DNA from: a virus
Lineage: Duplodnaviria > Heunggongvirae > Uroviricota > Caudoviricetes
Strand: one strand, 5' to 3'
DNA: 30,480 nt
Virus record (IMG/VR): IMGVR_UViG_2744054854_000009
How positions within the stretch are numbered: the first letter of the stretch is position 1; every line of letters begins with the position of its first letter. A model generated the notes under the pieces. That model made no database searches. It saw only the letters and a program-made list of their open reading frames with translations, and was not told where the DNA came from. Both the position numbers and the translations under genes were made by a program. Positions 1-29,499 of the stretch are shown piece by piece.

Positions 1-396
1 CTATTGTGCGGCCGATTCTTCTGGGCCGCACAATTTCTCGTAATCTTTTGGCGCCGTTCTATCTAAACCTGTGTAAATTTCTTTCCTCATGATTGAGTAG
101 GTTACACCCTTTGAGAAGGCGCCCTTAGGAACCATATTTATTTCTACCAGGAAGGGAGAAAAACCAGCGTAAGCCCCAAACCCATTTTTTGCATTCAGCT
201 GCCCGCATACGATCCCCTTAACCTCACCATCTTTTGTTTCTTCTGTTTGCACAAAACGCATATACCGAAATTTTGCGCTATCTGGATCTCTTGTATCTGC
301 GGCAACCTCTTTCTGCGCCAGTTCAATAGCCTTATCAACACCAGGCTTACACCCTACAAGCCCGATTAATGCCAGTAAAACCATGGTTTTTCTCAT
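1..396 (-). CDS. putative secreted lipoprotein (131 aa); prophage-border moron or flanking host gene
   Basis: ORF runs to window edge (stop at 1-3). ATG at 396 preceded by GGGGAA SD-like sequence. N-terminus MRKTMVLLALIGLVGC is a signal peptide plus lipobox. The track's upstream start at 462 is a TTG and less likely. Confidence 0.6.
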   Translation of the reverse strand: MRKTMVLLALIGLVGCKPGVDKAIELAQKEVAADTRDPDSAKFRYMRFVQTEETKDGEVKGIVCGQLNAKNGFGAYAGFSPFLVEINMVPKGAFSKGVTYSIMRKEIYTGLDRTAPKDYEKLCGPEESAAQ

Positions 397-429
397 TTTC
401 GTTCCCCACTTCCATTGGTAAGAGCGGTA

Positions 430-458
430 ATTATCATTTTCTGCTGATTGCTTCTCAA
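430..458 (-). promoter_or_regulatory. candidate sigma70 promoter for the lipoprotein gene
   Basis: On minus strand: TTGAGA (458..453), 17-nt spacer, GATAAT (435..430); lies between the ogr terminator hairpin and the lipoprotein RBS. Confidence 0.4.
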
Positions 459-460
459 GC

Positions 461-486
461 AAAACCCCGCAAATGCGGGGTTTTCT
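461..486. terminator. bidirectional intrinsic terminator after ogr
   Basis: Hairpin CCCCGC-aaat-GCGGGG (465-480) flanked by AAAA (461-464) and TTTT (481-484); immediately follows the ogr stop codon (487-489). Confidence 0.55.
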
Positions 487-735
487 TCATACTGCGAGAC
501 TGAGTTGACTGCTTCCATAATGCGAAGCGGGGAAAGCATCTGATGGGATGAAATCAGCCGGTAACTTATCGCGTGGTGCGCGTTTGGTTACCAGCTTCTC
601 AACGCTGTTGAGCGTAGTAAACGTAATACTGCATTCGAAATTCTGGCACTGGTGATAATGCCGGACTGTCATTTCACTAAGATGGCGACTGGTGCGCGTA
701 CGGGCGACGGCACCACAAACAGGACACTTAAACAT
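487..735 (-). CDS. ogr: Ogr/Delta-family zinc-finger late gene transcriptional activator
   Basis: 82 aa; MFKCPVCG...RHYHQCQNFECSITFTT has the Ogr CxxC...CxxxxC zinc finger and the conserved YHQCQN motif; GGGAGG SD 7 nt before ATG; sits after D as in P2. Confidence 0.9.
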   Translation of the reverse strand: MFKCPVCGAVARTRTSRHLSEMTVRHYHQCQNFECSITFTTLNSVEKLVTKRAPRDKLPADFIPSDAFPASHYGSSQLSLAV

Positions 736-780
736 AATGGCCTCCCATGGCGGGAGTTGAACTCGCTCATATTATGGCCG

Positions 781-1935
781 CTATGATTCGGTTTCTGCAA
801 TCCATTCAGGTATTTTTGCTTCCAGTTCCAGCCGCGTTTTAAATCCACTGCTGTCAATAGTGTGGCTTGCCTTGGCAATTATCCAGTCCTGGCCGTCAAT
901 GACGTCTTTGAATTCCGTTACCGTTCCGTGCATCTCCGGATACAGATCCGCGCGCCCGTAAGCCAGGGTTAAAGTGAACTCAGCTGCTCCTCGCTGGAGT
1001 TGTTGCCATTTTGCAGCTGCTGCACGTTGTGCGGCCATCTCACTGCTGTACGTAGTGCGGAGTACAAAAACGTTACCATCTTCACCGGCAATATAGTCCC
1101 CTTCCCGGCTGCTGCTACGCGGCTTTTTGTCTGCGGTTTTCTTCCGTTTTTTAACAGTGACCTTTTTCTTTTTTCCGAAATCCATATCAAGCCAGTACGC
1201 CTGCACGCCAGTGTATGCGTCACGATCTGCAATCCGGAAAGAATGTCGATCTCCGCTGCTGCGCGTGATGGAAAACTCCGGTAACGCTCTGCCGTTTGCA
1301 CTGACGCCACCACCAGGCAGGATGAACAGCAGGTAACCATTTTTCACAGTTGCAATAGCGCCCAGCATTTCCGCCATGCGCGTCAGAAACGACATGTCAC
1401 TTTCTTGTGTCTGATCTGCATGGTCGATCTCGGCGGACATCAGTTGCTCTGAGATGAGAGGTTTTAACTTGTACCGGTGAGCTATAGCAGAGACGATGCG
1501 CTCAACTGTAACGTCATGCCACGACACCTCCCGTTTGACGTTAAACTCATCGCGGAAATCTGCACTTCTGGCCGTGATCTCGATACGGTCCGGCGGCCCT
1601 GAGTGCGCAATTTCATCCACGATGAAAATCCCTTTGTGAACCAGTTTTTCTCCCTGCCAGCCTATCGCTACTGACAATTCTGCACCACGCGGGGGTAACT
1701 CAATATCTCCCTGGCTATCATCAACAGTGATGGTCAGCTCATCAGCATTAAAGCCCCTGTTATCTGTTAATTCTAATGAGACCAGGTTCCCATCCAGCAT
1801 GATCAACGCCTTGCCGCCAAGCATGACGTTAAACGCAGGTACACGTGACAGGTCGCCCGGATAATTTTTGAATTTCTCAGCACCCGCATTCAGCAGGCTT
1901 TTTGCGCTCTCTATTGCGTCAGTTGTCAGTGCCAT
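781..1935 (-). CDS. D: tail protein D (late control gene D family)
   Basis: Long ORF with gpD-like sequence and internal Lys-rich stretch. Start chosen at ATG 1935 (MALTTD) with GAGGAG SD, giving 384 aa against about 387 aa for P2 gpD; track ORF extends to 2016. Confidence 0.85.
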   Translation of the reverse strand: MALTTDAIESAKSLLNAGAEKFKNYPGDLSRVPAFNVMLGGKALIMLDGNLVSLELTDNRGFNADELTITVDDSQGDIELPPRGAELSVAIGWQGEKLVHKGIFIVDEIAHSGPPDRIEITARSADFRDEFNVKREVSWHDVTVERIVSAIAHRYKLKPLISEQLMSAEIDHADQTQESDMSFLTRMAEMLGAIATVKNGYLLFILPGGGVSANGRALPEFSITRSSGDRHSFRIADRDAYTGVQAYWLDMDFGKKKKVTVKKRKKTADKKPRSSSREGDYIAGEDGNVFVLRTTYSSEMAAQRAAAAKWQQLQRGAAEFTLTLAYGRADLYPEMHGTVTEFKDVIDGQDWIIAKASHTIDSSGFKTRLELEAKIPEWIAETES

Positions 1936-1993
1936 CGCTTTCTCCTCACGCAAATATTTCCATGCGCGCGCGATAGGACAAACAGCCTTTTGT

Positions 1994-2011
1994 TGTCGCC
2001 TTTCTGTGACA
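1994..2011. promoter_or_regulatory. Ogr-type late promoter activator box (TGT-N12-ACA) between divergent D and FI
   Basis: tgt-cgcctttctgtg-aca read directly; centre about 55 nt upstream of plausible start sites for both FI (plus; GAATAT -10-like at 2046-2051) and D (minus; AAATAT-like around 1954-1959). Confidence 0.5.
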
Positions 2012-2086
2012 TCCATCGTGACGTGTCTGCCGCCCGGAATTCAGCGAATATCACCATGAACTCACTAAACATGATGGCGGTAGAGT

Positions 2087-3268
2087 ATGACCGACAACTT
2101 TTTCCACGGATCACGCACCAAAGAAAACACCGACCTTCTGGCCGCGATCAATGACATTGATTCAACGGTCATTGGTCTGGTCGCGGTGGCCGATGATGCC
2201 GATCCCCTCACCTTTCCACTTGATACACCAGTCCTGATCACTCGCGTGATTAGCGTGCTGGGTAAGGCAGGCAAGACAGGCTCACTGTATAAATCTCTCA
2301 AGGCTATTTCCGACCAGGTCAGCACGCGCGTCATTGTTGTTCGTGTCGCTGAGGCCAAAGAGGGTGAAGATGAAAAAACACAATCTCAGCTCATTATCGG
2401 TGGCACTCAGGCTGACGGAAGCTATACCGGTATGTTTGCCCTGCTGACCGCAGAGCAGAAAACGGGTTATCGCCCTCGAATCCTCGGCATTCCGATGTAT
2501 GACACGCAGGAAGTAACCGCACAGCTGCGCGTAATTGCGAAGCAACTGCGTGCGTTCTCTTACAGCTATTGTGATGGCTGCGAGACTATTGCCGAAGCGA
2601 AGACCTACCGCGAGCAGTTCGCCGAACGTGAAGGGATGTTAATTTGGCCTAACTTCATCGCCTACAACCCGCAGACCGGCGTTAATGAAGAATTCCCGGC
2701 TGTTGCCTATGCGCTTGGCCTGCGGGCACTGATTGATAATGAGCAGGGCTGGCACAAATCACTTTCTAACGTTGCGGTGAAAAACGTCCTGGGTATCTCT
2801 AAAGACGTGTTCTGGGCGTTACAGGCGGAGGACTCCGACGCTAATGAGCTGAACGCTAACGAGATTACCACGCTGATCAAACGCGATGGCTTCCGGTTCT
2901 GGGGTAACCGTACCACCGACACCGAAGAGTATATTTTCGAGGTGTTCACCCGGACGGCCCAAATTCTTGCGGACAGCATTGCGGAAGCACAATTCACCAC
3001 CGTGGATAAACCGCTTACCCCGGCTAACGTCAAAGACGTTGTAAGCGGGATCAATGCCAAGCTTCAGGCGCTGGTCACTGCTGGCAAGCTGATTGGTGCA
3101 GCGTGCTGGTTTGATATTGTCGACAACCCGACCACTGGTATTCGCCAGGGTAAAGTTGTTATTCGCTACAACTACAGTCCCGTACCACCGCTGGAAAACC
3201 TGACGCTGATCCAGACGTTTACCGATCAGTATTACGAACCAGCCTTTGCATCGCTGGGAGGTGCATAA
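2087..3268 (+). CDS. FI: contractile tail sheath protein
   Basis: 393 aa; strong collinear similarity to P2 gpFI as recalled (e.g. LIKRDGFRFWGNRT, PVPPLENLTLIQ). Confidence 0.95.
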   Translation: MTDNFFHGSRTKENTDLLAAINDIDSTVIGLVAVADDADPLTFPLDTPVLITRVISVLGKAGKTGSLYKSLKAISDQVSTRVIVVRVAEAKEGEDEKTQSQLIIGGTQADGSYTGMFALLTAEQKTGYRPRILGIPMYDTQEVTAQLRVIAKQLRAFSYSYCDGCETIAEAKTYREQFAEREGMLIWPNFIAYNPQTGVNEEFPAVAYALGLRALIDNEQGWHKSLSNVAVKNVLGISKDVFWALQAEDSDANELNANEITTLIKRDGFRFWGNRTTDTEEYIFEVFTRTAQILADSIAEAQFTTVDKPLTPANVKDVVSGINAKLQALVTAGKLIGAACWFDIVDNPTTGIRQGKVVIRYNYSPVPPLENLTLIQTFTDQYYEPAFASLGGA

Positions 3269-3784
3269 ATGGCTATTCCTAAGAAACTCCGCCTGTTCAC
3301 GATGTTTGTCGATGGCGACAACTACATCGGGAAAATACCCAGCGTCACGCTCCCGAAAATCACCCGTAAAACGGAAGATTACCAGGGTGGCGGTATGCTT
3401 GGCTCTGCTGCTGTTGATCTCGGCCTTGATTCAGGTGCACTGGATGCATCAATGATTGTTGGTGGCATGGTCGAGGAGCTGATCCTGAAATGGGGTGGGG
3501 ATATTGACGAACTACGCACGCGCTTTGTCGGTGAGATCTACAGCGGCGGTACAAGCTCCCTGCTTGAGGTCGAGATGCGCGGACGTATTACCGAAGTCGA
3601 CCAGGGCGAAGCCAAGCAAGGTGATGACACCAATCATACTTATGCGCTCAAAAATACGTATTACAAGCTGTCCGTGGATGACAAACCTCTGCTGGAAATC
3701 GACCTGCTGAACTTCATCTACAAGCGCAACGGTAAGAGCCTCTACCCGGATCGCATTGCGTCCGCTCTGGGCCTCGGCCAGTAA
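3269..3784 (+). CDS. FII: tail tube protein
   Basis: 171 aa; MAIPKKLRLFTMFVDG... resembles P2 gpFII; GGGAGG SD; start abuts FI stop. Confidence 0.95.
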   Translation: MAIPKKLRLFTMFVDGDNYIGKIPSVTLPKITRKTEDYQGGGMLGSAAVDLGLDSGALDASMIVGGMVEELILKWGGDIDELRTRFVGEIYSGGTSSLLEVEMRGRITEVDQGEAKQGDDTNHTYALKNTYYKLSVDDKPLLEIDLLNFIYKRNGKSLYPDRIASALGLGQ

Positions 3785-3805
3785 CCTTTTTTAACCACTA
3801 CAAAT

Positions 3806-3824
3806 GGCGGCCAGTCTGGCCGCC
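3806..3824 (+). other. perfect stem-loop between FII and E (possible attenuator or RNA processing element)
   Basis: GGCGGCCA-gtc-TGGCCGCC, 8-bp stem and 3-nt loop, no trailing U-run. Confidence 0.3.
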
Positions 3825-3837
3825 CGGAGAAAGAATA

Positions 3838-4137
3838 ATGTCAGTAACTCTCAGCCAACCCATTAAACGCGGCGATCAGGAAATCAAATCCGTCTCAATC
3901 ACCGACACAATCAAGCAGGCTGGCTCACTGCGCGGGCTGCGTCTGGTTGATGTTCTCAACTTCGATTATGACGCGGTATCAACTCTGCTGACTCGCGTAA
4001 CCACGCCCCAGCTGACAACTGCCGATATTTCCTCAATGGCGACCGGCGACTTTACGGCCCTGTGCGAAGAAATCACGCCTTTTTTGACGAAAGCGGCGCC
4101 GTCCGCACCGAGCGAGGCGGCAACGGCGAGCAAGTAA
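3838..4137 (+). CDS. E: tail assembly chaperone E
   Basis: 99 aa ORF directly after tail tube, GGAGAAAG SD; position and size as P2 gpE; contains slippery TTTTTTG near its 3' end. Confidence 0.85.
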   Translation: MSVTLSQPIKRGDQEIKSVSITDTIKQAGSLRGLRLVDVLNFDYDAVSTLLTRVTTPQLTTADISSMATGDFTALCEEITPFLTKAAPSAPSEAATASK

Positions 4138-4310
4138 GAGAGGCAGTATTCAGCGATGTCGACGATCTGATCGCCGATATCGCTGTGATATTTCACTGGC
4201 CGCCCTCCGAAATGCACAGCATGGAGTTGCGCGAGCTGATGGCCTGGCGCGAACGGGCGGCCATCAGAAGCGGCAACCATGATAAGGAGGATGACGACGA
4301 TGGATCTTAG
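3838..4310 (+). CDS. E': tail assembly chaperone E+E' made by programmed -1 ribosomal frameshift
   Basis: Slippery heptamer T-TTT-TTG at 4080-4086 in E frame; the -1 frame is open from there to TAG at 4308-4310 (track ORF 4062..4310), overlapping the T start; mirrors the P2 E/E' (lambda G/GT-like) arrangement. Confidence 0.75.
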
Positions 4311-7239
4311 TATTCGCGTTGCGTTCAGTGCAATTGACAAGCTCACCCGCCCGGTCAGCGCCGCCAGTAAAGCTATTGGCGGCCTTTCCGACTCCCTCAA
4401 AAAAACTCAGTCCTCCATCAAAGACCTGGAAAAAAGCGCAACATCATTTGATAAGTTACGCTCGCAAGCCAATGACACTGCGCAGAAGCTGAAAAGCACC
4501 CAGCGGGCATTTAACGGTCTAAACCAGAAGCAACGTGAAGGCGGCCAGCTTACTGAAGCCCAGACGGCACGGCTTGAGTCACTTCGCACCAGGCTTTCCC
4601 GGCTGACGGAAACCTACGGCAGGCAAACGACGCAGCTGCGCACAGCAGCGCAGGCTGTGCGCCAGCATGGCGTTAATCTCACCACCGGTAGCGGCGCCAT
4701 CCAGAGTGCCATCAGGCGTACGGAACAATACAACCAGGCACTTGAGCGCGAACGTCGTCAGCTGGCTGCTACCCAGAAAGCCCAGGCCAGATACGAACAG
4801 GCAAAAGAGACTGCGGGTAAACTTCGCGGTGCAGGCATGGGGATGATGCTTGGCACTGCTGCTGCGGGCTACGCTGGCGGATCATTCCTTGCGCCTGCGA
4901 TTGGTTTCGACGAGGAAATGTCACGCGTCCAGGCCTTAACCCGCCTTAATAAAGACTCTTCCCAGATGGGAGATCTGCGCGCGCAGGCTAAAAAACTCGG
5001 TGCAGAAACTGCATTCACCTCTCGCGATGCAGCCAGCGGGCAGGCGTTTCTTGCAATGGCTGGCTTTACTCCAGAGGCCATTCAGGCGGCATTGCCCGGC
5101 GTTCTGAATATGGCGCTGGCCGGTGGCATGGATCTTGGTGAAAGTGCCGATATCAGCTCCAACATTCTTTCGCAGTTCCGCCTTGATCCAAAGGAAATGG
5201 ATCGGGTCAGTGATGTTTTGACCGCAGCATTTACCCGTACTAACACCGATTTAATGAACATCGGTGAGGCGATGAAGTATGCAGGAACCGGGATGGCTGG
5301 TCTTGGCGTTGATGTTGAGCGCACAACCGCCATGATCGGTGTAATGGCCAACGTTGGCCTGCGGGGTAGTATTGCAGGTACTGGCCTACAAACCACCTTT
5401 TCACGTCTGGCCGCACCAACAGGCAAGGCTCAGGCAGCCCTGAAAGAATTGGGCGTTTCTGTTGCTGATGCCACCGGAAAAATGCGACCGGCCGAAGTGG
5501 TCTTGTCTGATATTTATAAATCTATCAAAAAGTACGGCGATACAGACCAGCTTTCATTCTTCAAAGATATCGCTGGCGAGGAGGCAGCAAAGTCATTTCA
5601 GGCGCTGGTTAGATCGGCTGGTAGCGGTGAGCTGCAAAAACTCCTTGCCGATTTGCGCGGCTCTCATGGTGAAGCGCAGAAGGCAGCGAAGGTCATGGCT
5701 GACAACCTCAGCGGTGATCTGAAAAACCTGGACAGCGCATGGGAGGGTTTCCGCATTCAGATTGAGGAGACTGCCGACGGCCCTCTGCGCTCTCTCACTC
5801 AGGGGCTTAGCGATATGATCACCGCCGCCAGTACCTGGGTAAAAGAAAACCCCCGACTGACACAAACAATCATTCTGGTTGTCGGTGGGACACTTGCACT
5901 GGTGGCGGCAATTGGCGCTGCATCACTGGCGATGGGTATTCTTATTGGCCCCCTCGCCAAACTTCAGCTCGGCTTTTCACTGCTGACCGGTGGTCGCGGG
6001 CTACTCGGCACCATTGCAGCTTTTCGCACTCTCGGCACTGTCGCGGGCCCGGCCATGGCAAGTGTCAGAGGATGGTCCGTCGTACTGTCAGGAATCGCCC
6101 CTAACCTGGGAAGAATTTCAGCTATTCTCCCTGCGGTTCGCTCTGGTCTGCTTACTGCATTCCTGTCTCCTGGCGCACTTGTGGGATCGCTGACTAAAAA
6201 CATTGGCATGCTGCTGCTTCGCCTCACTGGCTTACCAGCAATCTGGGGCATGATCACCGGTGCGATATCTGTTCTTGGTGGGGCTTTATCTTTTTTACTC
6301 AGTCCAATAGGCCTGATTGGTGCCGCGTTTGTATCTGCGGGATTGCTAATCTGGCGATACTGGGAACCCATTAAGACATTTTTCCTCGGTATGTTTACCG
6401 GAGTTATGCAGGCGATCTCCCCTCTCAGGGATGCCTTTGCCACCTTTTTCCCCATCTTTGACATGATCAGCAATGGGGTGAAATCCGTCTGGCAGTGGTT
6501 TACAAACCTTTTGTCGCCAATGCAGACCAGCAAAGAGACGCTTGATAAATGCGCGAGCGCTGGCGTGATCTTCGGTAACGTGCTCGGCGGTGCGATTAAT
6601 CTCGTCCTGACCCCAGCCAGGATGCTACTTGATACTCTGGGCTGGATACTTGAAAAACTTGGTGTACTACCTGATGAAGCAGAGAGGGCGCGCAAGAAAA
6701 TTGAGGATGCGCAACGCTCTGCCCTCCTTCAGGATAAGGTGGCTTTCCTTGCCGGTGATATGGCTAAAGTCGCCCCCAAAAAAGCAGAGTCGCCAGTTAC
6801 TACTGCTGCACCCGCTGCGGCCTCGCCGCTATCAGGAAATACCGGTACGCAACGACGCCTGCAAAGCATCGCAGACAATACAAAAGCAACCGCTGACAAC
6901 ACCAAGAAAGTCGGGCCGGGTGACATTATTTTCAAAAACCTGCCGCGCGCTCTGGCTTTACGTGGCGCATACCAGGAAGCGCGTGTTACACCGCAGTCAG
7001 TGCCGCGAGTGGCAACGCCCGCCGCTGGCGGCATTATTTCCGCGACAGCAGCCACTCAGGCACCGGTATCGGCCCCCGTTACCGCGCCCACCGGCAATGC
7101 TCCAGTGTTTAACATTACCTTTAACGATGTTGGTAAGCGCACGGATCAGGAGCTGGAAAGAATGGTACGCAATGTTGTGCGTGATGCGATGGCCAGTACC
7201 AACAGAAATAACCGTGGTTCTTTCCGCGACAGAGATTAG
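4300..7239 (+). CDS. T: tail tape measure protein
   Basis: About 979 aa with coiled-coil-like N-terminal part, hydrophobic/Gly-rich central segments and low-complexity C-terminus; follows E/E'. Start chosen at ATG 4300 (AAGGAGG SD 9 nt upstream); track start 4279. Confidence 0.9.
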   Translation: MDLSIRVAFSAIDKLTRPVSAASKAIGGLSDSLKKTQSSIKDLEKSATSFDKLRSQANDTAQKLKSTQRAFNGLNQKQREGGQLTEAQTARLESLRTRLSRLTETYGRQTTQLRTAAQAVRQHGVNLTTGSGAIQSAIRRTEQYNQALERERRQLAATQKAQARYEQAKETAGKLRGAGMGMMLGTAAAGYAGGSFLAPAIGFDEEMSRVQALTRLNKDSSQMGDLRAQAKKLGAETAFTSRDAASGQAFLAMAGFTPEAIQAALPGVLNMALAGGMDLGESADISSNILSQFRLDPKEMDRVSDVLTAAFTRTNTDLMNIGEAMKYAGTGMAGLGVDVERTTAMIGVMANVGLRGSIAGTGLQTTFSRLAAPTGKAQAALKELGVSVADATGKMRPAEVVLSDIYKSIKKYGDTDQLSFFKDIAGEEAAKSFQALVRSAGSGELQKLLADLRGSHGEAQKAAKVMADNLSGDLKNLDSAWEGFRIQIEETADGPLRSLTQGLSDMITAASTWVKENPRLTQTIILVVGGTLALVAAIGAASLAMGILIGPLAKLQLGFSLLTGGRGLLGTIAAFRTLGTVAGPAMASVRGWSVVLSGIAPNLGRISAILPAVRSGLLTAFLSPGALVGSLTKNIGMLLLRLTGLPAIWGMITGAISVLGGALSFLLSPIGLIGAAFVSAGLLIWRYWEPIKTFFLGMFTGVMQAISPLRDAFATFFPIFDMISNGVKSVWQWFTNLLSPMQTSKETLDKCASAGVIFGNVLGGAINLVLTPARMLLDTLGWILEKLGVLPDEAERARKKIEDAQRSALLQDKVAFLAGDMAKVAPKKAESPVTTAAPAAASPLSGNTGTQRRLQSIADNTKATADNTKKVGPGDIIFKNLPRALALRGAYQEARVTPQSVPRVATPAAGGIISATAATQAPVSAPVTAPTGNAPVFNITFNDVGKRTDQELERMVRNVVRDAMASTNRNNRGSFRDRD

Positions 7240-7248
7240 GTGACGATT

Positions 7249-7737
7249 ATGATGATGGTTTTTGGAATGTTCGTTTTTATGCTGCGCACCACGCCCTACC
7301 AGCAACTCCAGCACTCGCAGGAGTGGAGGCACGTTAAAAACGAGCGCGTTAACCAGTCAGCAGGCTGGCAGTACATCGGCACTGGTGATGACAACATAAC
7401 CCTTTCAGGTGTTCTTTACCCGGAGATCACGGGGGGAAACCTCTCGCTATCCGCCCTTGAAACTATCGGCTATGCGGGGCGCCCATGGCCGCTTATTGAG
7501 GGTACGGGACGTATTTATGGTATGTACGTTTTAACACGGCTGGAGCGAGGTAAATCCGAATTCGATCAATTTGGGAATCCCAAAAAAATTGAATTTACCC
7601 TCAGCCTGAGCCGTGTCGACGCGGATTACAGGGAGAAGCTGCAAAGCTCGACCGTCAGCGACGCCCTTGCCGGGTTAAAGACGAGTGCAAATAATGCGAT
7701 AAACCAGGTGAAAGACTCGCTCAACGGTCTGTTTTAG
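7249..7737 (+). CDS. U: tail protein U
   Basis: MMMVFGMFVF...LSGVLYPEITGG... matches P2 gpU as recalled (MMMVLGLFVF...); ATG 7249 with AGGTGA SD; track's GTG start at 7240 overlaps T stop. Confidence 0.9.
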   Translation: MMMVFGMFVFMLRTTPYQQLQHSQEWRHVKNERVNQSAGWQYIGTGDDNITLSGVLYPEITGGNLSLSALETIGYAGRPWPLIEGTGRIYGMYVLTRLERGKSEFDQFGNPKKIEFTLSLSRVDADYREKLQSSTVSDALAGLKTSANNAINQVKDSLNGLF

Positions 7738-7744
7738 CAGTGGC

Positions 7745-8313
7745 TTAAACCCCTTCATGTTCCCTTCTTCTTGAAGGGAACTTCTTGTAAAGCGTCGATA
7801 TTCCGACATCAAAAATAATAGCCACCTGCTGCCGTTTTTCCCCTGCGGCGATCAGCCTTCCCGCCTGTTCCCATTGCTGCTTTGTCAGTTTTGGCCGCCT
7901 CCCGCCTATTCTTCCTTCTGCGCGGGCAGCCGCCAAACCGGCGCGGGTACGCTCAACGATCAATTCTCTCTCCATTTCTGCCAGCGCCCCCATGACGTGA
8001 AAGAAAAAGCGCCCATGGGTGTTGAGGTATCAATGCTGTCTGTCAGGCTGCGGAAGTTAACACCGCGATTGCGTAGCTCTTCGATCATTGTCACCAGGTG
8101 GCGCATGCTCCGCCCAAGACGATCAAGCTTCCAGACAACCAGCGTATCACCCTCCGATAAGGTCCGTAATAAACGCTTAAGCCCCGGCCTTTCCGCTTTA
8201 GTGCCGCTTATTTTGTCTTCAAATATTTGTTCACATCCTGCGCTTACCAGCGCATTTCTTTGCAGCGCAGTGTTCTGGTCATTTGTTGACACCCTTACAT
8301 AGCCGATCAGCAT
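7745..8313 (-). pseudogene. Hin/Gin/Cin-family serine DNA invertase, reading frame broken by a 1-nt loss in a homopolymer
   Basis: N-terminal ORF (7960..8313) has the catalytic serine motif GYVRVSTNDQ; C-terminal ORF (7745..7993) has the HTH part MGALAEMERELIVERT...GRRPKLT. Frames meet at an A5 tract (8004-8008, T5 on coding strand); one more T would restore the conserved ...GAFFFHVMGALAEMEREL... read-through. Confidence 0.8.
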
Positions 8314-8351
8314 AAAAATCCCCTTTTATTTAGATGTCATAGTCCCTCGCA

Positions 8352-8624
8352 TTGTATCGAGCATCGTCATTTCTGGCTGTACTGCAGGTCTGGTACCGCA
8401 CCGTCAGAAGTAACCATGTCTTCCGGAAAACGTTGGTTTCAGAAGTCAATACCTACATCAATACCCATCAGTGGCCTGGCAAAGCTGCTATTGGTCGTCT
8501 GAAAGGCGAGGAACTGGCGCAATATAATTCGTGGCTGGATTATCTGGACGCACTGGAACTGGTCGATACTTCCTGTGCGCCAGATATTGAATGGCCTACG
8601 CCTCCGGCAGTTCAGGCCAGCTAA
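8352..8624 (+). pseudogene. 5'-truncated remnant of an alternative tail fibre assembly gene (tfa', convergent with G)
   Basis: No ATG in the ORF (track start is TTG); C-terminal half ...YNSWLDYLDALELVDTSCAPDIEWPTPP matches the conserved Tfa C-terminal motif (W..Y...VDTS.APDIEWP) also seen at the end of G; no alternative tail-fibre C-terminus lies between it and the invertase. Confidence 0.6.
8421..8446. other. candidate degenerate invertase crossover site (hix/gix-like)
   Basis: ttccggAAAACG-TT-GGTTTCagaagt: quasi-palindrome around a central TT, opposite orientation to the site at 9471-9496. Confidence 0.3.
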
Positions 8625-9021
8625 CATGGTTGGGGTCGGTTTTCACATCAACCAATTTCACAGTGTTCTTATATGTCAGCCACGCCGACAGATTTGTCCT
8701 GTTGGTGTCACTGATTTCTCCCAGCATTAATTCTGTACGCCAGTCGAGCATCATCGCATCAGCATGAGCCAACAGCCGCTGACGTTCATTCTCAGCAGTC
8801 GCAATCAACTCTTCCTTGGTCGGAGGTGGAATATCAACCCAACCAGGCATCCCATTCACTGACCCCAGCTTTTTACCGGAGGGAGCTGCACCACAAAATT
8901 GGAGGTGAAGCACATGGGTAATTTCAATCAAATCATCAGGCCAGTTTCCCGCACGCTCGTAGGCTTCTTTGCGGTCGTCATCATAGAAACCAACAGTTGA
9001 CGCACTAAATAAAATTTTCAT
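8596..9021 (-). CDS. G: tail fibre assembly protein
   Basis: ATG at 9021 (MKILFSASTVGFYDDD...) 2 nt after the H-frame stop; C-terminus ...VDVKTDPNHVSWPELPEA has the Tfa-type motif; track ORF extends to 9096. Confidence 0.85.
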   Translation of the reverse strand: MKILFSASTVGFYDDDRKEAYERAGNWPDDLIEITHVLHLQFCGAAPSGKKLGSVNGMPGWVDIPPPTKEELIATAENERQRLLAHADAMMLDWRTELMLGEISDTNRTNLSAWLTYKNTVKLVDVKTDPNHVSWPELPEA

Positions 9022-9022
9022 A

Positions 9023-9346
9023 TCAATACCCCAGTGCGAACCAGAATCCGCCACTATTTGAGTTAAAATCAGAATCTTGCGCGACATGAAAACCAAATCC
9101 AGTTCTTACCACTCCGATAGCTGAACAACCAAACCCCTTTGTTGGCCGTGCCGTAGCGTCCAGTGTACACATCACGGCAACAGTAGCTGTCGGGTGAGTT
9201 ATAGTAAATGTGACGTTTGTAGTTTGCCCTGCGTTGGTTGGGCCAACTTTACCCCACTGCAAAATCAGTCCACCTGGTAGATACTGATATCCGATCGCGT
9301 TTTTCAATATAGACGTTTGTAGTTTGCCCTGCGTTGGTTGGGCCAA
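9023..9346 (-). pseudogene. H: out-of-frame C-terminal portion of tail fibre gene H, separated from the main ORF by a 100-bp duplication
   Basis: ORF repeats ...LKNAIGYQYLPGGLILQWGKVGPTNAGQTTNV (encoded by the repeat) then continues TFTITHPTATVAV...GGFWFALGY to a stop abutting G; has no independent start signal. Confidence 0.6.
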
Positions 9347-9409
9347 CTTTACCCCACTGCAAAATCAGTCCACCTGGTAGATACTGATATCCGATCGCGT
9401 TTTTCAATA
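9212..9409. repeat. perfect tandem direct repeat, 2 x 98 bp with period 100 bp, inside tail fibre gene H
   Basis: 9212-9309 is identical to 9312-9409 (read directly); period is not a multiple of 3, so the H frame shifts and stops at 9249-9251. Confidence 0.9.
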
Positions 9410-10091
9410 CTCCAAACGAACCCATGTCGGGGATTTGGTTTGTACCCGCACCCACATCACACAGTGCTGCCGATTTAATTCCAAGGTTTTGGAGAACCTG
9501 ATTTACCAGCCCAGCATCAACCATTTCTTTTAATGCATTAGCTATCAGTGGGTATTGCTTGTGCGGATTTGCAGCAGCTACGTGCTTTTTCATCACATCA
9601 TCGGCGTATGCCTTAACTTCAATAACGGCATCATCAACATATTTACGGGTTGCCAGCACCACTGACGGATCGATTTTCAGCGTCACAGCCTCGGTGCTGC
9701 TGACGATCAGGATCACGCGAATAACCTGCACGCGCCCGCTACCTTCCTGCAACTGCGGTTTATAAGTCTCTGCACAGTTGGCAACCGCAATCATATCGCC
9801 GTCTTTATCAAACAGGCCAATCTCACGGATCCACCATCCGCCCGCGTCTTCCGGTATAACCTGTTCCGCAATGATCTGATTGGTGTTTACCGGGTCAACA
9901 GTCAGCATGTTCAGCTGCGCGCGGCGCAGCTCATGCACGAGGGCGGTTTGGGCCGGATTGGGTGTCGGCAGCGCGCCGTTACCATCACCGACGGCCATTT
10001 GGGTGATCTCAACCTGCGCACCCAATGCCGTGGCGTTTGCCAGTTTTGCCGCCCCGATATTGGTTAACAGGGCAAAATATTTAGTCGCCAC
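9249..10091 (-). CDS. H: tail fibre protein H, truncated form (280 aa) ending inside the duplicated segment
   Basis: N-terminal region ATKYFALLTNIGAAKLANATALG...MAVGDGNGALP...YKPQLQEGSGR resembles P2 gpH N-terminus; GTG start at 10091 with GGAGA SD (track start is TTG at 10112); premature stop caused by the 100-bp duplication. Confidence 0.8.
   Translation of the reverse strand: MATKYFALLTNIGAAKLANATALGAQVEITQMAVGDGNGALPTPNPAQTALVHELRRAQLNMLTVDPVNTNQIIAEQVIPEDAGGWWIREIGLFDKDGDMIAVANCAETYKPQLQEGSGRVQVIRVILIVSSTEAVTLKIDPSVVLATRKYVDDAVIEVKAYADDVMKKHVAAANPHKQYPLIANALKEMVDAGLVNQVLQNLGIKSAALCDVGAGTNQIPDMGSFGVLKNAIGYQYLPGGLILQWGKVGPTNAGQTTNVYIEKRDRISVSTRWTDFAVG
9471..9496. other. candidate invertase crossover site (gix/hix-like) inside H
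   Basis: Coding-strand sequence TTCTCCAAAACC-TT-GGAATTAAATCG; left half matches the recalled conserved Hin/Gin half-site TTATCCAAAACC at 11 of 12 positions; encodes H residues VLQNLGIK just upstream of the C-terminal region. Confidence 0.4.
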
Positions 10092-10695
10092 TTGCGATCT
10101 CCACGGTATCAATTAAATGGACTGCCGCGCCGGTGTAGTCGCCACCGCCCACGGATATGGTTTCAGGAAAATAGGGGTAAACGGTCAACGTATCGCCGAT
10201 ATAACACCCCGCTCCGGCTTCGATATACCCCTGCGTCTGAAGCGAAAGCGAAAGGCCGGTAAGGTGGCGGCTTCTGGGTTTCGCGTCATCAATCAGGCGT
10301 TCAAGCTCCTGATATGTTTCCTCGGTTATCCCTTCGTCCTGAATGCCAATTTCAAGCTTGAAAGTGCCGGGCTCCTCGCCGCTCTGCCACCACTCAATCA
10401 CCCTCAGCAAATAGCCGAAAGGTTCAACAACGCGCCTCAACGCCGAAATCGTGCCTTTGTGGCGATGGACAAGCCACGAGGCTTTAATTACCTGCCTTTT
10501 GGTCTGTTCAGACCAGCGCTTATCCCAGCGATCAACAGACAACGCCCAGGCCAGATAGGGTAAAAACTCCACGGGGCATTCATCCGGATCCCAGAGCTTT
10601 CGAAGGTCGACAGGAATACCGCTGATCCGCGCCGTCGGTTTCTCCGCATTCCGCATGAAATTGCTGGCTGAAGGCGGCAGGAGGTTGTTATTCAT
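10081..10695 (-). CDS. I: baseplate assembly protein I
   Basis: 204 aa; MNNNLLPP...LPYLAWALSVDRWD...HRHKGT matches P2 gpI as recalled. Confidence 0.9.
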   Translation of the reverse strand: MNNNLLPPSASNFMRNAEKPTARISGIPVDLRKLWDPDECPVEFLPYLAWALSVDRWDKRWSEQTKRQVIKASWLVHRHKGTISALRRVVEPFGYLLRVIEWWQSGEEPGTFKLEIGIQDEGITEETYQELERLIDDAKPRSRHLTGLSLSLQTQGYIEAGAGCYIGDTLTVYPYFPETISVGGGDYTGAAVHLIDTVEIASGD

Positions 10696-11584: not shown

Positions 11585-11939
11585 TGCTGCTTTTCCTGAG
11601 TGTTAAAGTTGTCTTCTGCTGTTCCATGGATTCTGTCAGCGAGCCTGATAATCCCGCTTCCACTGCCCCGGACTGAGAAAAGCGTACATCCACGGCGCTC
11701 AGAGTGATCCGTGGTTCCCATGTCGCCAGCGCAATCACCACCGCGCTCATCAGCTGCATACGTGTAACGTCGTTTTGCGGGCCATCAATCAGGTCAGGAA
11801 CAAGAGAGCCGTAATCACGGCGCATGAGCCTTGAGCCAATCGGGGTGTTAAGAATGTCACTGGCTGACTGCCACACGTGGGCGGCGTCCGTCAGCGTTCC
11901 CGTGCCATCAGGATTCATCCCGGTATAGCGCACCGTCAT
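11571..11939 (-). CDS. W: baseplate assembly protein W (gp25/lysozyme-like baseplate wedge family)
   Basis: 122 aa; position between V and J; ATGA-type overlap with V. Confidence 0.85.
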   Translation of the reverse strand: MTVRYTGMNPDGTGTLTDAAHVWQSASDILNTPIGSRLMRRDYGSLVPDLIDGPQNDVTRMQLMSAVVIALATWEPRITLSAVDVRFSQSGAVEAGLSGSLTESMEQQKTTLTLRKSSNGNS

Positions 11940-12520
11940 TTCGTGCCCTCCGTCCAGCTTCCGCCACGCTGTACAGCACCATGACCATGATCATCAACCT
12001 GCACACCGTTTGAGATGAACGCACCGCCTGTGTGCGTAAAGTCCCCCTGCATTTTGCCGCCTTCCGTAACGGTGAAGTTTTTGGTTTTCAGCATCTCGGT
12101 ACACTCGACCAGCGGCGTTTTCAGTAAGACCTTAACCGACGCCTCAATCGTTGCTGATTTGATGCCACTGACCTGCAAAGCCCCTGCCTCTGCGTCATAG
12201 CGAAACTTCGCGCCATCCGGCGCGGTCACGATCATTTCTTTTGTCGATGCGCCTGGCGCCGGATTGTCGTTGCTGTAAAGACTTCCCCCGATGATCGCAG
12301 CGGTTGTATTCCCCCCCAGACTCAGGAACCAAACCTGCTCGCCAACAGACGGCGGCACCCAGACGCTGAAAGCGCCTGCACGCTGTGCATTCCAGCGCAG
12401 CCAGGTGGAATCCAGCTCTCCGCTTTGTACCCGTACCCGCCATTTTTTCTCGTCAATCTCCGTCACCGTACCGGTGCGAACGATGTTTTCCAGCAGGCGG
12501 ATGACCTCAGCCAGATCCAT
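11936..12520 (-). CDS. V: baseplate spike/assembly protein V
   Basis: 194 aa; ...PPSVGEQVWFLSLGG...HTGGAFISNGVQVDDHGH resembles P2 gpV; start shares one nt with S stop (TGATG). Confidence 0.9.
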   Translation of the reverse strand: MDLAEVIRLLENIVRTGTVTEIDEKKWRVRVQSGELDSTWLRWNAQRAGAFSVWVPPSVGEQVWFLSLGGNTTAAIIGGSLYSNDNPAPGASTKEMIVTAPDGAKFRYDAEAGALQVSGIKSATIEASVKVLLKTPLVECTEMLKTKNFTVTEGGKMQGDFTHTGGAFISNGVQVDDHGHGAVQRGGSWTEGTK

Positions 12521-13161
12521 CAGCTCACCCCCAGAGAATCAATGACCTGTCTGGCGATAGCCATGCGGTCCGCTTTGCTCAGGCCGAGCAACTCACGGCG
12601 CGGATAACTCGCCATCGCTCCGCTGTCGTTAACCCTGTCCCGTAACCCGTACTGGTGAACACGGGCGATGCGGGCAGCTGCACCAGAGAAACCAACTACA
12701 GCCCCCTCAGAAGTCGCTCTTGCTTTCAGAAAACGGGTTGTGCGCAGTCGGCGAAACATAGGATCACTTTTTGTGGTATCGCGGCGCGTCTCGCTGAAAC
12801 TGATATCAAGATAACGCTCAATATCAGAGCGATAGAACGAGCGAACAGCCCCCTTACCCTCATCAAAGCCTGTCAGCATGCGTCCCCGGCTTCCACGGCT
12901 TGCCCGCCAGTTTCGCAGGCGACGCTCCTCACCCTGCCAGATAAACCCGATCCCAGCCTGGGAGCGTAAGACACGGCGGCGACGCTTCGGGTATTTTGTG
13001 CCATCCGGAGCTGTCTGTTTTCCGATGCGCTGGCTCTGGCTACGGCGTAATGTAGTCGCTATTCCGCGCGCTGTACGCAACCGGCCCGCTGGCGCCATTG
13101 CGGAAAGGATGTCTGCAAAAACCTGATCGAGCTGATGAAACAGCGCTGCATCACCGGTCAT
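12520..13161 (-). CDS. S: tail completion / virion morphogenesis protein S
   Basis: Start chosen at ATG 13161 (MTGDAALF..., GGAGGAG SD), overlapping R stop by 4 nt; Arg-rich gpS-like protein; track start 13194. Confidence 0.85.
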   Translation of the reverse strand: MTGDAALFHQLDQVFADILSAMAPAGRLRTARGIATTLRRSQSQRIGKQTAPDGTKYPKRRRRVLRSQAGIGFIWQGEERRLRNWRASRGSRGRMLTGFDEGKGAVRSFYRSDIERYLDISFSETRRDTTKSDPMFRRLRTTRFLKARATSEGAVVGFSGAAARIARVHQYGLRDRVNDSGAMASYPRRELLGLSKADRMAIARQVIDSLGVS

Positions 13162-13607
13162 GCCAGCTCTCCTCCGCCAAATACCACCTCCCACTCACCG
13201 CCATAGATGCGAGGGCGGTCTTCACTCAGGTGTTTCGCGACTGGCTTCCCGTCAACGATTTCCACCATGACGCGCTCCCAGACCGGCACCTTGAAGAGAA
13301 GATCAGCCAGGTCATCGCTGATAATGTCGGCGTCAAACTCCACCTTGCGGTTATTGTCAGGATTCAGCAGTAAATCCGGCTGATATTGCCAGGCCCAGGC
13401 CATAATCGGCAGCATCAGGTCATCAACCGCCCCGGGGAACTCCACGGCGAGAACATTGATGGTGTAGAGATACATGAATGACGGTTCGCCGGTCGCTTCA
13501 ATCCCGATATTGCCTTTTTCCACCCAGACGGTGATTTGCTCCGGGTTGGCCTTACACCAGGTGTTACCGGCTATCAGGGCTTCACGCATCAACTCTGCTT
13601 TTTTCAC
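13158..13607 (-). CDS. R: tail completion protein R
   Basis: 149 aa; GTG start at 13607 with GGGGGA SD; ...ALIAGNTWCKANPEQITVWV aligns with P2 gpR N-terminus as recalled. Confidence 0.85.
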   Translation of the reverse strand: MKKAELMREALIAGNTWCKANPEQITVWVEKGNIGIEATGEPSFMYLYTINVLAVEFPGAVDDLMLPIMAWAWQYQPDLLLNPDNNRKVEFDADIISDDLADLLFKVPVWERVMVEIVDGKPVAKHLSEDRPRIYGGEWEVVFGGGELA

Positions 13608-18654: not shown

Positions 18655-18672
18655 TGTGAGCGGAGCACTACA
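18655..18672. promoter_or_regulatory. Ogr-type activator box (TGT-N12-ACA) in the divergent O/P promoter region
   Basis: tgt-gagcggagcact-aca read directly; roughly central in the 160-bp O-P intergenic region; GGGGGA-cgca-TCCCCC hairpin lies at 18623-18638. Confidence 0.45.
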
Positions 18673-18738
18673 ACCTAAAGCGAGCGCAAGGGTACGCGCG
18701 CGCGGGTTAATCTCCCCGGCAGGAAGCGAGGAGGATTA

Positions 18739-29430: not shown

Positions 29431-29499
29431 CAGTTTATAAACATTACATTTTCACTATTTGTTACCAAGATAGTGAAATCTGCGCCGGAGGGCTTTCTT

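What the first reader, a model, noticed from the sequence alone, without database searches (positions are those of the whole stretch)
2087..7737. Tail sheath-tube-tape measure module is inverted relative to canonical P2 gene order
In P2 and 186 the late genes O..S, V W J I H G, FI FII E T U, D and ogr all run in one direction. Here everything from O to G and D-ogr is on the minus strand, but FI-FII-E/E'-T-U is on the plus strand. Read along the minus strand the order is G, invertase, then U-T-E-FII-FI backwards, then D: a clean 5.65-kb inversion. One breakpoint lies in the 7 bp between the U stop (7737) and the invertase stop (7745); the other lies in the D/FI intergenic region (1936-2086). 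A serine invertase gene sits at one breakpoint. I could not find a convincing crossover-site pair at the junctions, so the mechanism is open.
Basis: partly seen in the sequence, partly recalled or inferred. Interest (0 to 1): 0.6.

Follow-up and report, generated by a model that had tools for sequence, protein, structure and literature searches.

The report
Clade-wide inverted tail module in P2-like prophage
The tail sheath-to-tape-measure genes of this P2-like prophage do run backwards compared with phage P2, but this is an old, fixed gene order shared by a whole branch of enterobacterial P2-like phages, not a recent flip, an assembly error or the work of the neighbouring invertase gene.

Summary
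FI-FII-E/E'-T-U (2087-7737, +) lies opposite to D-ogr and to the O…G late genes (all -). In P2 and 186 all of these genes share one strand.

The same divergent D/FI junction and convergent U end occur in isolated phages of four ICTV genera: P88, 3LV2017, SEN5 and phiT5282H. They also occur in Serratia phage KSP20, in 11 E. coli genomes, and in every informative enterobacterial prophage recovered from about 20 genera. In total 47 loci are inverted. These loci form one clade in FI, FII, U and D trees.

The invertase is not involved:
- It is a frameshifted pseudogene here.
- It is absent from 31 of 39 relatives that share the inversion.
- No crossover sites flank the module.
- Its single remnant site (8421-8446) belongs to the tail-fibre cassette.

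The 151-bp D/FI spacer carries a conserved TGT-N12-ACA activator dyad about 55 bp from two outward-facing -10-like elements. This matches the shared pP/pO (P2) and p12/pV (186) sites, so D probably has its own late promoter (inferred).

The finding is ordinary, and its interest is low.

The parts
487..735 (-). ogr/Delta-type zinc-finger late activator gene
   Evidence: Pfam PF04606, E 1.9e-18. Annotated as ogr/Delta-like in the 99.9% identical E. coli prophage.
781..1935 (-). gpD (tail/baseplate hub, late control D). It lies outside the inverted block and is separated from U, unlike in P2.
   Evidence: Pfam PF05954. The start at 1935 follows the annotation of relatives and the conserved CAT in alignment A1. 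47% identical to P2 D.
1936..2086 (.). D/FI divergent spacer; predicted bidirectional Ogr-dependent late promoter region
   Evidence: Blocks at least 90% conserved in 44 unique relatives: CA.GCGCGCG.G (1961-1973), TTTGTTGT (1989-1996), GA.tAT (2046-2051) and GAACTCA (2058-2064).
1994..2011 (.). TGT-N12-ACA dyad (TGTCGCCTTTCTGTGACA); predicted Ogr binding site, centre at 2002.5
   Evidence: One of only 4 such matches in the window; another lies in the O/P divergent spacer. 41 of 44 relatives have TGT-N12-A[CG]A centred 74-90 nt upstream of the FI ATG. Distance from centre to the FI ATG: 84.5 nt here, 83 in P2, 82.5 in 186.
2087..3268 (+). gpFI tail sheath
   Evidence: Pfam PF04984, PF17482 and PF22671. 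49% identical to P2 FI.
3269..3784 (+). gpFII tail tube
   Evidence: Pfam PF04985, E 2.4e-46.
3838..4310 (+). gpE tail assembly chaperone (3838-4137) and its -1 frameshift extension E' (to 4310). Slippery T TTT TTG at 4080-4086.
   Evidence: Pfam PF10109 for E and PF06528 (GpE) in the -1 frame ORF 4062-4310. Sequence read. P2 has the same arrangement.
4279..7239 (+). gpT tape measure protein (the annotated start in the near-identical E. coli prophage corresponds to 4300)
   Evidence: Pfam PF10145, E 6e-50.
7240..7737 (+). gpU tail protein (ORF starts at GTG 7240; the relatives' annotated ATG corresponds to 7249)
   Evidence: Pfam PF06995, E 1.4e-41.
7759..7781 (+). Terminator-like hairpin downstream of U, lying inside the 3' end of the invertase pseudogene
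   Evidence: 9-bp stem followed by a T-rich tail. Conserved in the E. coli 6409 copy. Its function is inferred.
7745..8313 (-). Gin/Pin-family serine invertase pseudogene (frameshifted). It is accessory cargo of the tail-fibre switch, not part of the inversion.
   Evidence: Pfam Resolvase and HTH_7, split over two ORFs. 1-bp deletion relative to the intact 189-aa homologue. Annotated as frameshifted in E. coli PCP06171. Absent from 31 of 39 relatives.
8421..8446 (.). Single gix/cix/pix-like crossover site (TTCCGGAAAACGTTGGTTTCAGAAGT) of the tail-fibre cassette
   Evidence: Unique in the window. Homology to two relatives ends exactly at 8439/8440, the site centre. The relative PCP06171 keeps two inverted sites.
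18655..18672 (.). TGT-N12-ACA dyad in the O/P divergent spacer (the canonical shared late-promoter site); used for comparison
   Evidence: The P2 equivalent is annotated at 3057-3087 and serves pP and pO.

Best explanation
The window is a P2-like (Peduoviridae) prophage of the P88 / 3LV2017 / SEN4-5 / phiT5282H branch. In the common ancestor of that branch, the block running from the P_F promoter through FI-FII-E/E'-T-U was inverted once, in place. The breakpoints were (a) upstream of the P_F activator site and (b) at the U/D boundary.

The arrangement has been fixed since then, so here it is inherited and not a local event.

It probably works as follows. The inversion placed the dyad-symmetric Ogr binding site of P_F next to the start of D. 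The 151-bp spacer now acts as a bidirectional late promoter: FI…U is transcribed rightward and D(-ogr) leftward from one shared activator site. P2 does the same at pP/pO, and 186 does the same at p12/pV.

The adjacent serine invertase is unrelated cargo of the tail-fibre host-range switch, and it is dead in this copy.

Shown: the gene order, its distribution, monophyly, conservation of the spacer motifs, and the state of the invertase. Inferred: a single in-situ origin and the promoter function.
For: Arrangement shared with relatives:
- One contiguous alignment across D, the spacer and FI in KSP20, 3LV2017 and others. 48 phage records span the junction.
- The annotated maps of 3LV2017, KSP20, P88, SEN5, phiT5282H and E. 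coli 6409 all show D(-)/FI..U(+)/tail fibre(-).
- 11 of 13 E. coli genomes with a match carry the junction intact.

Bacterial species-representative genome scan (GTDB):
- All enterobacterial loci holding both D and FI are inverted (47 loci counting phages and the window).
- All 16 collinear loci are P2, 186, BIS20, Klebsiella phage ST512-KPC3phi13.6, Burkholderia and Roseibium.

Fused U+D tblastn:
- 367 of 527 phage records have U-D adjacent and collinear.
- The sampled records with U and D split are those with the highest D identity (59-82%, against at most 51% for collinear records).

Origin of the block:
- The inverted group is monophyletic in neighbour-joining trees of FI, FII, U and D.
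- Identity to P2 is similar inside the block (FI 49, FII 46, U 50) and outside it (D 47, J 56, I 55, W 48). This argues for an in-situ inversion and against an imported module.

Spacer and promoter model:
- Conserved dyad and flanking boxes.
- The geometry is symmetric. The -10-like GAATAT (2046-2051) and, on the minus strand, GAAATA (1955-1960) are each about 45 nt from the dyad centre.
- The P2 record annotates one activator site for pP and pO, with transcription starts 55-56 nt to either side. The 186 record annotates one B site for 'activation of pV and p12'.
- P2 late promoters are defined by TGT-N12-ACA and depend on Ogr (PMC3931495).

Members of the clade are viable phages:
- P88 is induced and lyses a range of E. 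coli strains (PMC5285337; PMC6456863).
- PhiSM is described as an active temperate phage (PMC6456863).
- SEN4/5 (PMC5261728).
- Particles of the KSP20-like prophage PP4 were seen (PMC9826266).
Against: - No transcription data were available. The D-side -10 element is weakly conserved: GAAATA here but AAACCA-type in several relatives.
- A transcription start 55 nt from the dyad would leave only about a 12-nt leader, beginning within the Shine-Dalgarno sequence.
- TGT-N12-ACA is not enriched in the window as a whole (4 found, 6.1 expected). Only its position and conservation are informative.
- The trees are neighbour-joining without bootstrap. The collinear set is small (16) and was sampled by similarity to D.
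- None of the four papers on members of this clade that I term-searched for inversion or orientation wording mentions the arrangement. 'Known' therefore rests on deposited genome maps.
Confidence: 0.85

Rival explanations
1. A recent, local inversion of the 5.65-kb block in this particular genome.
For: The block is inverted relative to P2 and 186.
Against: The junctions and orientation are identical in 47 loci from about 20 genera and in isolated phages that share only 60-80% protein identity. The spacer is a conserved regulatory unit. No relative shows the uninverted state.
Confidence: 0.02
2. The adjacent Gin/Pin-type serine invertase inverted the module. This could be a programmed switch, or a one-off event at quasi-sites in the ancestor.
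For: An invertase gene abuts the U end here and in 8 of 39 informative relatives, always convergent with U and 14-265 bp away. From my own knowledge, such enzymes can act on secondary sites.
Against: No crossover-like site or inverted repeat lies at 1936-2086 or 7738-7745. The gene is frameshifted here. 31 of 39 relatives with the inversion lack it. Its recognisable site (8421-8446) lies on the tail-fibre side and marks a cassette boundary. No opposite-orientation isoform was seen in any relative. An ancient quasi-site event cannot be excluded, because the sites would have decayed.
Confidence: 0.04
3. Ancestral module replacement: a foreign FI-U cassette was acquired in the opposite orientation, and no in-situ inversion took place.
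For: P2-like genomes are mosaic, and tail-fibre and cargo regions are visibly exchanged here. T is the least conserved gene within the clade (27-100% identity).
Against: FI, FII and U are as similar to P2 (46-50%) as the flanking D, J, I and W are (47-56%). Genes inside and outside the block give the same monophyletic group. The spacing from the dyad to the FI ATG is that of P2 P_F and 186 pJ.
Confidence: 0.08
4. An assembly error at one of the junctions.
For: None beyond the general possibility. Read data were not available.
Against: The same junction sequence occurs in independent complete chromosomes (for example CP010371 and CP109924) and in independently sequenced phage isolates.
Confidence: 0.01

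Closest known systems
Phages P88 (Xuanwuvirus), Klebsiella phage 3LV2017 (Reginaelenavirus), SEN4/SEN5 (Senquatrovirus), Enterobacter phage phiT5282H (Novemvirus) and Serratia phage KSP20
   Same: Identical module order and strands: ogr-D on one strand, FI-FII-E-T-U divergent, then the convergent tail-fibre genes. A D/FI spacer of roughly 110-160 bp by annotation. FI is 61-90% and D 60-83% identical to the window. P88 also has an invertase directly after U.
   Different: The tail-fibre and cargo regions differ. 3LV2017, SEN5 and phiT5282H have no invertase. Nucleotide identity to the nearest isolated phages is only about 76-77% over about half of the first 10.2 kb, so the window probably does not belong to the same species as any isolated phage.
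F operon of P2 (FI FII E E' T U D, promoter P_F) and J operon of 186
   Same: Same genes in the same internal order, the same E/E' -1 frameshift signal (T TTT TTG), and the same distance from the activator site to the FI start (83-85 nt).
   Different: In P2 and 186 the operon is collinear with V-G and includes D (U and D overlap). Here the block is inverted, D is split off, and D must be transcribed from the spacer.
Shared-activator divergent late promoters pP/pO of P2 and p12/pV of 186
   Same: One dyad (TGT-N12-ACA type) lies midway between two outward-facing promoters. Starts are about 55 nt to each side in P2. The window's O/P spacer (18655-18672) and D/FI spacer (1994-2011) both fit this geometry, and both have a CGCGCGCG box about 21-22 nt from the dyad on one side.
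   Different: The function of the D/FI spacer is inferred from sequence only. The D-side leader would be unusually short.
Gin/Cin/Pin/Hin tail-fibre inversion systems (Mu G segment, P1 C segment, e14 P segment)
   Same: A serine invertase gene next to tail-fibre and tail-fibre-assembly cassettes, a 26-bp site resembling gix/cix, and a fragment 98.9% identical over 188 bp (8440-8627) to E. coli genes annotated tfaE on the opposite strand. The related E. coli PCP06171 prophage keeps two inverted sites.
   Different: Here the invertase is frameshifted and only one site remains, so the switch is dead. It concerns the tail-fibre region at about 8.3-9.4 kb, not the FI-U block.

Membership tests
P2-like phages (Peduoviridae) | P2-type morphogenetic gene set: Q/P divergent from O-N-M-L, then R-S-V-W-J-I-H-G and FI-FII-E-T-U-D | tested here: met
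   Pfam hits for GPO, Phage_cap_P2, the small and large terminase subunits, portal, GPL, GpR, Phage_tail_S, Tail_P2_I, sheath, tube, GpE, GpU and GPD. tblastn identity to P2 is 34-56%.
P2-like phages (Peduoviridae) | Ogr/Delta zinc-finger late activator, GpA rolling-circle replication protein and a tyrosine integrase | tested here: met
   PF04606 (487-735), PF05840 (22718-25357), and PF00589 with Int_N (29473-30480).
P88/3LV2017-type clade with inverted FI-U block | D divergent from FI across a spacer of about 150 bp, with U convergent on the tail-fibre end of the V-G genes | tested here: met
   The spacer is 151 bp and aligns with those of relatives.
P88/3LV2017-type clade with inverted FI-U block | Falls inside the clade in trees of genes both inside and outside the block | tested here: met
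   Neighbour-joining trees of FI, FII, U and D: the window nests with E. coli 6409, Yokenella, 3LV2017 and KSP20, and the inverted group is monophyletic. No bootstrap support was calculated.
ICTV genus Reginaelenavirus (the nearest isolated phage is 3LV2017) | At least 70% nucleotide identity over the whole genome length (ICTV genus criterion, from my own knowledge) | tested here: inconclusive
   Only the first 10.2 kb was compared: 77.5% identity over 47% of it. The whole genome was not compared.
Ogr-dependent late promoter | TGT-N12-ACA dyad centred about 55 nt upstream of the transcription start | tested here: met
   Dyad at 1994-2011. -10-like elements about 45 nt to each side. Conserved in 41 of 44 relatives. 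Definition from PMC3931495 and the P2 and 186 records.
Ogr-dependent late promoter | Transcription that actually starts there and depends on Ogr | not testable with these tools
   Needs 5'-RACE or RNA-seq, or reporter assays.
Gin/Hin-type invertible DNA switch acting on the FI-U block | Two inverted crossover sites flanking the invertible segment | tested here: not met
   No site or inverted repeat at 1936-2086 or 7738-7745. Only one site in the window, at 8421-8446.
Gin/Hin-type invertible DNA switch acting on the FI-U block | Intact serine invertase | tested here: not met
   A 1-bp deletion splits the gene into 117-aa and 82-aa ORFs.
Gin/Hin-type invertible DNA switch acting on the FI-U block | Both orientations found among copies or relatives | tested here: not met
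   All 47 clade members have the same orientation. Read-level heterogeneity could not be tested.

The most novel reading that the evidence does not exclude
The ancestral inversion was produced by a Gin/Pin-family invertase acting on quasi-crossover sites. It survived only because it placed the palindromic P_F Ogr site next to D, which created a second bidirectional late promoter. This would be a documented case of a host-range-switch recombinase reshaping a phage's core operon structure.
Probability: 0.04. Interest if true: 0.35.

Novelty: already known. Interest (0 to 1): 0.1.

Why it matters
It matters little. The arrangement already appears in the deposited, annotated genomes of several classified peduovirus genera and in many enterobacterial prophages. 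The window is simply another, partly decayed, member.

Two modest points are useful.
- P2 and 186 are poor gene-order references for this large enterobacterial branch. Annotation or synteny-based scans should therefore not flag its members as rearranged.
- The clade offers a natural experiment in operon rewiring. D was cut out of the F operon and appears to have been rescued by sharing a dyad-symmetric activator site. This is easy to test with reporter fusions in P88 or PhiSM.

Tried and rejected
- **Inverted repeats across 1-10500**. Only short arms at 70-88% complementarity were found, and none pairs the two junctions.
- **Crossover-site searches.** I used the exact 26-mer with 3 mismatches, the AAACCNNGGTTT core, and a degenerate gix/cix consensus. 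There is one real site at 8421-8446. A palindrome AAACCATGGTTT at 378-389 is consistent with chance (0.85 matches expected per window) and matches neither breakpoint.
- **Window-wide enrichment of TGT-N12-ACA**. There is none (4 found, 6.1 expected). Only position and conservation carry weight.
- **Generic sigma-70 scan**. It found nothing in the D/FI spacer, as expected for activator-dependent late promoters, and gave no more hits than shuffled sequence.
- **Rfam and tRNA scans of the window**. Nothing found.
- **Literature**. None of the four papers on members of this clade that I term-searched uses inversion or orientation wording. The Burkholderia paper's uses of 'inversion' and 'inverted' concern IS elements and invertase references.
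- **Single-copy relative of the 100-bp duplication in H**. That part of the cassette is absent from complete E. coli genomes, so the duplication could not be compared.
- **The long D start at 2016.** I rejected it in favour of 1935, on the basis of the annotation of relatives and the alignment.
Full report
**What is in the window**

The window is a P2-like prophage read in the reverse of the conventional P2 map.
- ogr at 487-735 (-)
- D at 781-1935 (-)
- FI at 2087-3268 (+)
- FII at 3269-3784 (+)
- E at 3838-4137 (+), with the GpE domain in the -1 frame and the P2 slippery heptamer T TTT TTG at 4080-4086
- T, ending at 7239 (+)
- U, ending at 7737 (+)
- a resolvase-type recombinase at 7745-8313 (-)
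- tail-fibre assembly and tail-fibre genes, then I, J, W, V, S, R, L, M, N and O, all (-)
- P and Q (+)
- replication gene A (-) and the integrase at the right end

In the RefSeq records of P2 and 186, the V-G genes, FI-FII-E-T-U-D and ogr/B all lie on one strand, and U overlaps D. The factual core of the finding is therefore right: relative to P2 and 186, exactly one block (FI to U with its upstream promoter region) is inverted.

**It is a lineage feature, not a local event**

- A 10.2-kb query gave single contiguous alignments running from D across the spacer into FI and on to T, in Serratia phage KSP20 and Klebsiella phage 3LV2017.
- A 1.5-kb query centred on the D/FI junction was spanned on one strand by 48 phage records. 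These include Klebsiella, Escherichia, Salmonella, Enterobacter, Citrobacter and Serratia phages.
- The same query was spanned by 11 of the 13 complete E. coli genomes that matched at all.
- The deposited annotations all show D on one strand, FI-FII-E-T-U divergent from it, and the tail-fibre genes convergent on U. This holds for 3LV2017 (Reginaelenavirus), P88 (Xuanwuvirus), SEN5 (Senquatrovirus), phiT5282H (Novemvirus), KSP20 and an E. coli 6409 prophage.

A fused U+D protein query separates the two architectures across the phage collection.
- 367 of 527 matching records have U and D adjacent and collinear. These include P2, L-413C and Burkholderia, Ralstonia, Pseudomonas and Mannheimia phages.
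- The sampled records in which U and D are split are the ones whose D is most similar to the window's: 59-82% identity, against at most 51% for collinear phages.

A scan of bacterial species-representative genomes (GTDB) with the D protein returned 55 loci, which I classified by tblastn.
- Every enterobacterial locus holding both D and FI is inverted. The genera are Yokenella (98% D identity), Raoultella, Klebsiella, Kosakonia, Enterobacter, Chania, Serratia, Pectobacterium, Brenneria, Trabulsiella, Symbiopectobacterium, Erwinia, Kluyvera, Pantoea, Mixta, Salmonella, Izhakiella, Edwardsiella and Citrobacter.
- The Burkholderia, Paraburkholderia and Roseibium loci are collinear.
- Counting phages and the window, 47 loci are inverted and 16 collinear.

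In neighbour-joining trees the inverted loci are monophyletic for FI, FII and U (inside the block) and also for D (outside it). Identity to P2 is about the same inside the block (FI 49%, FII 46%, U 50%) and outside it (D 47%, J 56%, I 55%, W 48%). The simplest reading is a single in-situ inversion in the ancestor of this branch.

Members of the branch are working phages:
- P88 is inducible and lyses a range of E. coli strains (PMC5285337; PMC6456863).
- PhiSM is described as an active temperate phage (PMC6456863).
- SEN4/5 were recovered as phages (PMC5261728).
- Particles of the KSP20-like prophage PP4 were observed (PMC9826266).

None of these four papers, term-searched for inversion or orientation wording, remarks on the arrangement.

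**The invertase is not involved**

- In the window it is a pseudogene. A 1-bp deletion in a C/G run (about 8012-8014) splits it into 117-aa and 82-aa ORFs, compared with the intact 189-aa E. coli 6409 homologue. The 99.9% identical E. coli PCP06171 prophage is annotated as frameshifted too.
- Of 39 inverted loci with at least 1 kb of sequence beyond U, only 8 have an invertase or a fragment of one there. 3LV2017 and SEN5 have none, and none was detected in the 900 bp beyond U in phiT5282H.
- No inverted repeat or crossover-like site lies at either junction.
- The only gix/cix-like site is at 8421-8446, on the tail-fibre side. Homology with two relatives ends exactly at its centre, 8439/8440.
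- PCP06171 retains two inverted sites bracketing alternative tail-fibre cassettes.

The invertase therefore belongs to a Mu-G / P1-C / e14-type tail-fibre switch. That switch is decayed in this copy.

**How the inverted arrangement probably works (inferred)**

D is cut off from the F operon, so it needs its own promoter in the 151-bp spacer. That spacer contains TGTCGCCTTTCTGTGACA (1994-2011), a perfect TGT-N12-ACA. This is the motif that defines Ogr-dependent P2 late promoters (PMC3931495).

Only four such matches occur in the whole window, which is no more than chance. Two of the four, however, sit in the two divergent late spacers: D/FI, and O/P at 18655-18672.

Conservation across 44 unique relatives:
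- The left half TTTGTTGT is at least 90% conserved.
- 41 of 44 have TGT-N12-A[CG]A centred 74-90 nt upstream of the FI start.
- Further blocks are conserved on both sides: CA.GCGCGCG.G toward D, and GA.TAT and GAACTCA toward FI.

The distance from the dyad centre to the FI ATG is 84.5 nt. It is 83 nt in P2 P_F and 82.5 nt in 186 pJ. The FI half of the spacer is therefore the orthologue of P_F and travelled with the block.

-10-like hexamers lie about 45 nt to either side of the dyad centre, which predicts starts near 2058 (+) and 1947 (-). This is the geometry that the P2 record annotates for pP/pO: one activator site at 3057-3087, with starts at 3016 and 3127. The 186 record annotates the same for p12/pV: one B site for 'activation of pV and p12'.

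Weak points of the model:
- The D-side -10 element is poorly conserved.
- The D leader would be only about 12 nt long.
- There are no transcript data.

**Verdict**

The interpretation as a discrete, possibly invertase-linked event is not supported. The arrangement is already present in public genomes of several classified genera, so it is not new. The residual interest is a small, testable hypothesis about how a dyad-symmetric activator site allowed an operon to be split.

Noticed in passing
window 7745-8313 (-): The serine invertase is a pseudogene. A 1-bp deletion in a C/G run (about 8012-8014) splits it into two ORFs. The same lesion is annotated in the 99.9% identical E. coli PCP06171 prophage, while E. 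coli 6409 has an intact 189-aa copy.
   Followed up: yes
window 8421-8446: An orphan gix/cix-like crossover site. Homology with two related prophages stops exactly at its centre (8439/8440), so the tail-fibre cassette to its right (8440-9412) was exchanged by site-specific recombination. No partner site remains in the window. 186 carries a similar vestigial 'Mu-like inversion crossover site' in its tail-fibre gene.
   Followed up: partly
window 9212-9409 (within tail-fibre gene H, 9023-10112, -): A perfect 100-bp tandem duplication (2.0 copies, 100% match) duplicates the start of the Gp53-like C-terminal domain and shifts the frame. This splits H into ORFs 9249-10112 and 9023-9346. Either the prophage has a broken tail fibre or this is an assembly artefact. 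No single-copy relative was found in complete E. coli genomes.
   Followed up: partly
window 8352-8624 (+): A C-terminal fragment of a tail-fibre assembly gene on the opposite strand. Positions 8440-8627 are 98.9% identical to E. coli genes annotated tfaE. It is a leftover of the alternative cassette of the dead inversion switch.
   Followed up: partly
window 1961-1973 and 18695-18704: A CGCGCGCG box lies 21-22 nt from the activator dyad on the D side of the D/FI spacer and on the P side of the O/P spacer. On the D side it is at least 90% conserved across 44 relatives. Its role is unknown; it may be a lineage-specific promoter element.
   Followed up: partly
window 12520 (S/V boundary) and 11936-13607: R, S and V are contiguous, with no spacer, no orf30 equivalent and no TGT-N12-ACA upstream of V. 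This lineage may therefore lack a separate P_V promoter and transcribe O…G as one unit.
   Followed up: no
window 7759-7781: A 9-bp-stem hairpin with a T-rich tail, just downstream of U and inside the invertase 3' coding end. It is conserved in the intact E. coli 6409 copy and may be the terminator for the FI-U transcript.
   Followed up: no
L035 (NZ_JBQPOM010000071.1) and L059 (DEQA01000038.1): P88-like enterobacterial prophage sequence appears in assemblies labelled Vagococcus sp. WN89Y and Planococcaceae bacterium UBA3378 (both Firmicutes). This is probably contamination or mis-binning in those records.
   Followed up: no
window 1-10200 vs L004 (E. coli PCP06171) and L010 (Yokenella regensburgei ATCC 49455): Apart from the tail-fibre cassette, the first 10.2 kb of the window is 99.9% identical to a prophage next to fieF/pfkA in a seawater E. 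coli, and its D protein is 98% identical to one in Yokenella. Near-identical prophages thus occur in different genera, and only the host-range cassette is swapped.
   Followed up: partly
window 1-462 (-): A 153-aa ORF between ogr and the prophage end has no Pfam hit and is annotated as hypothetical in the E. coli relative. It is possibly a cargo gene at the position where P2-like phages often carry accessory genes.
   Followed up: no
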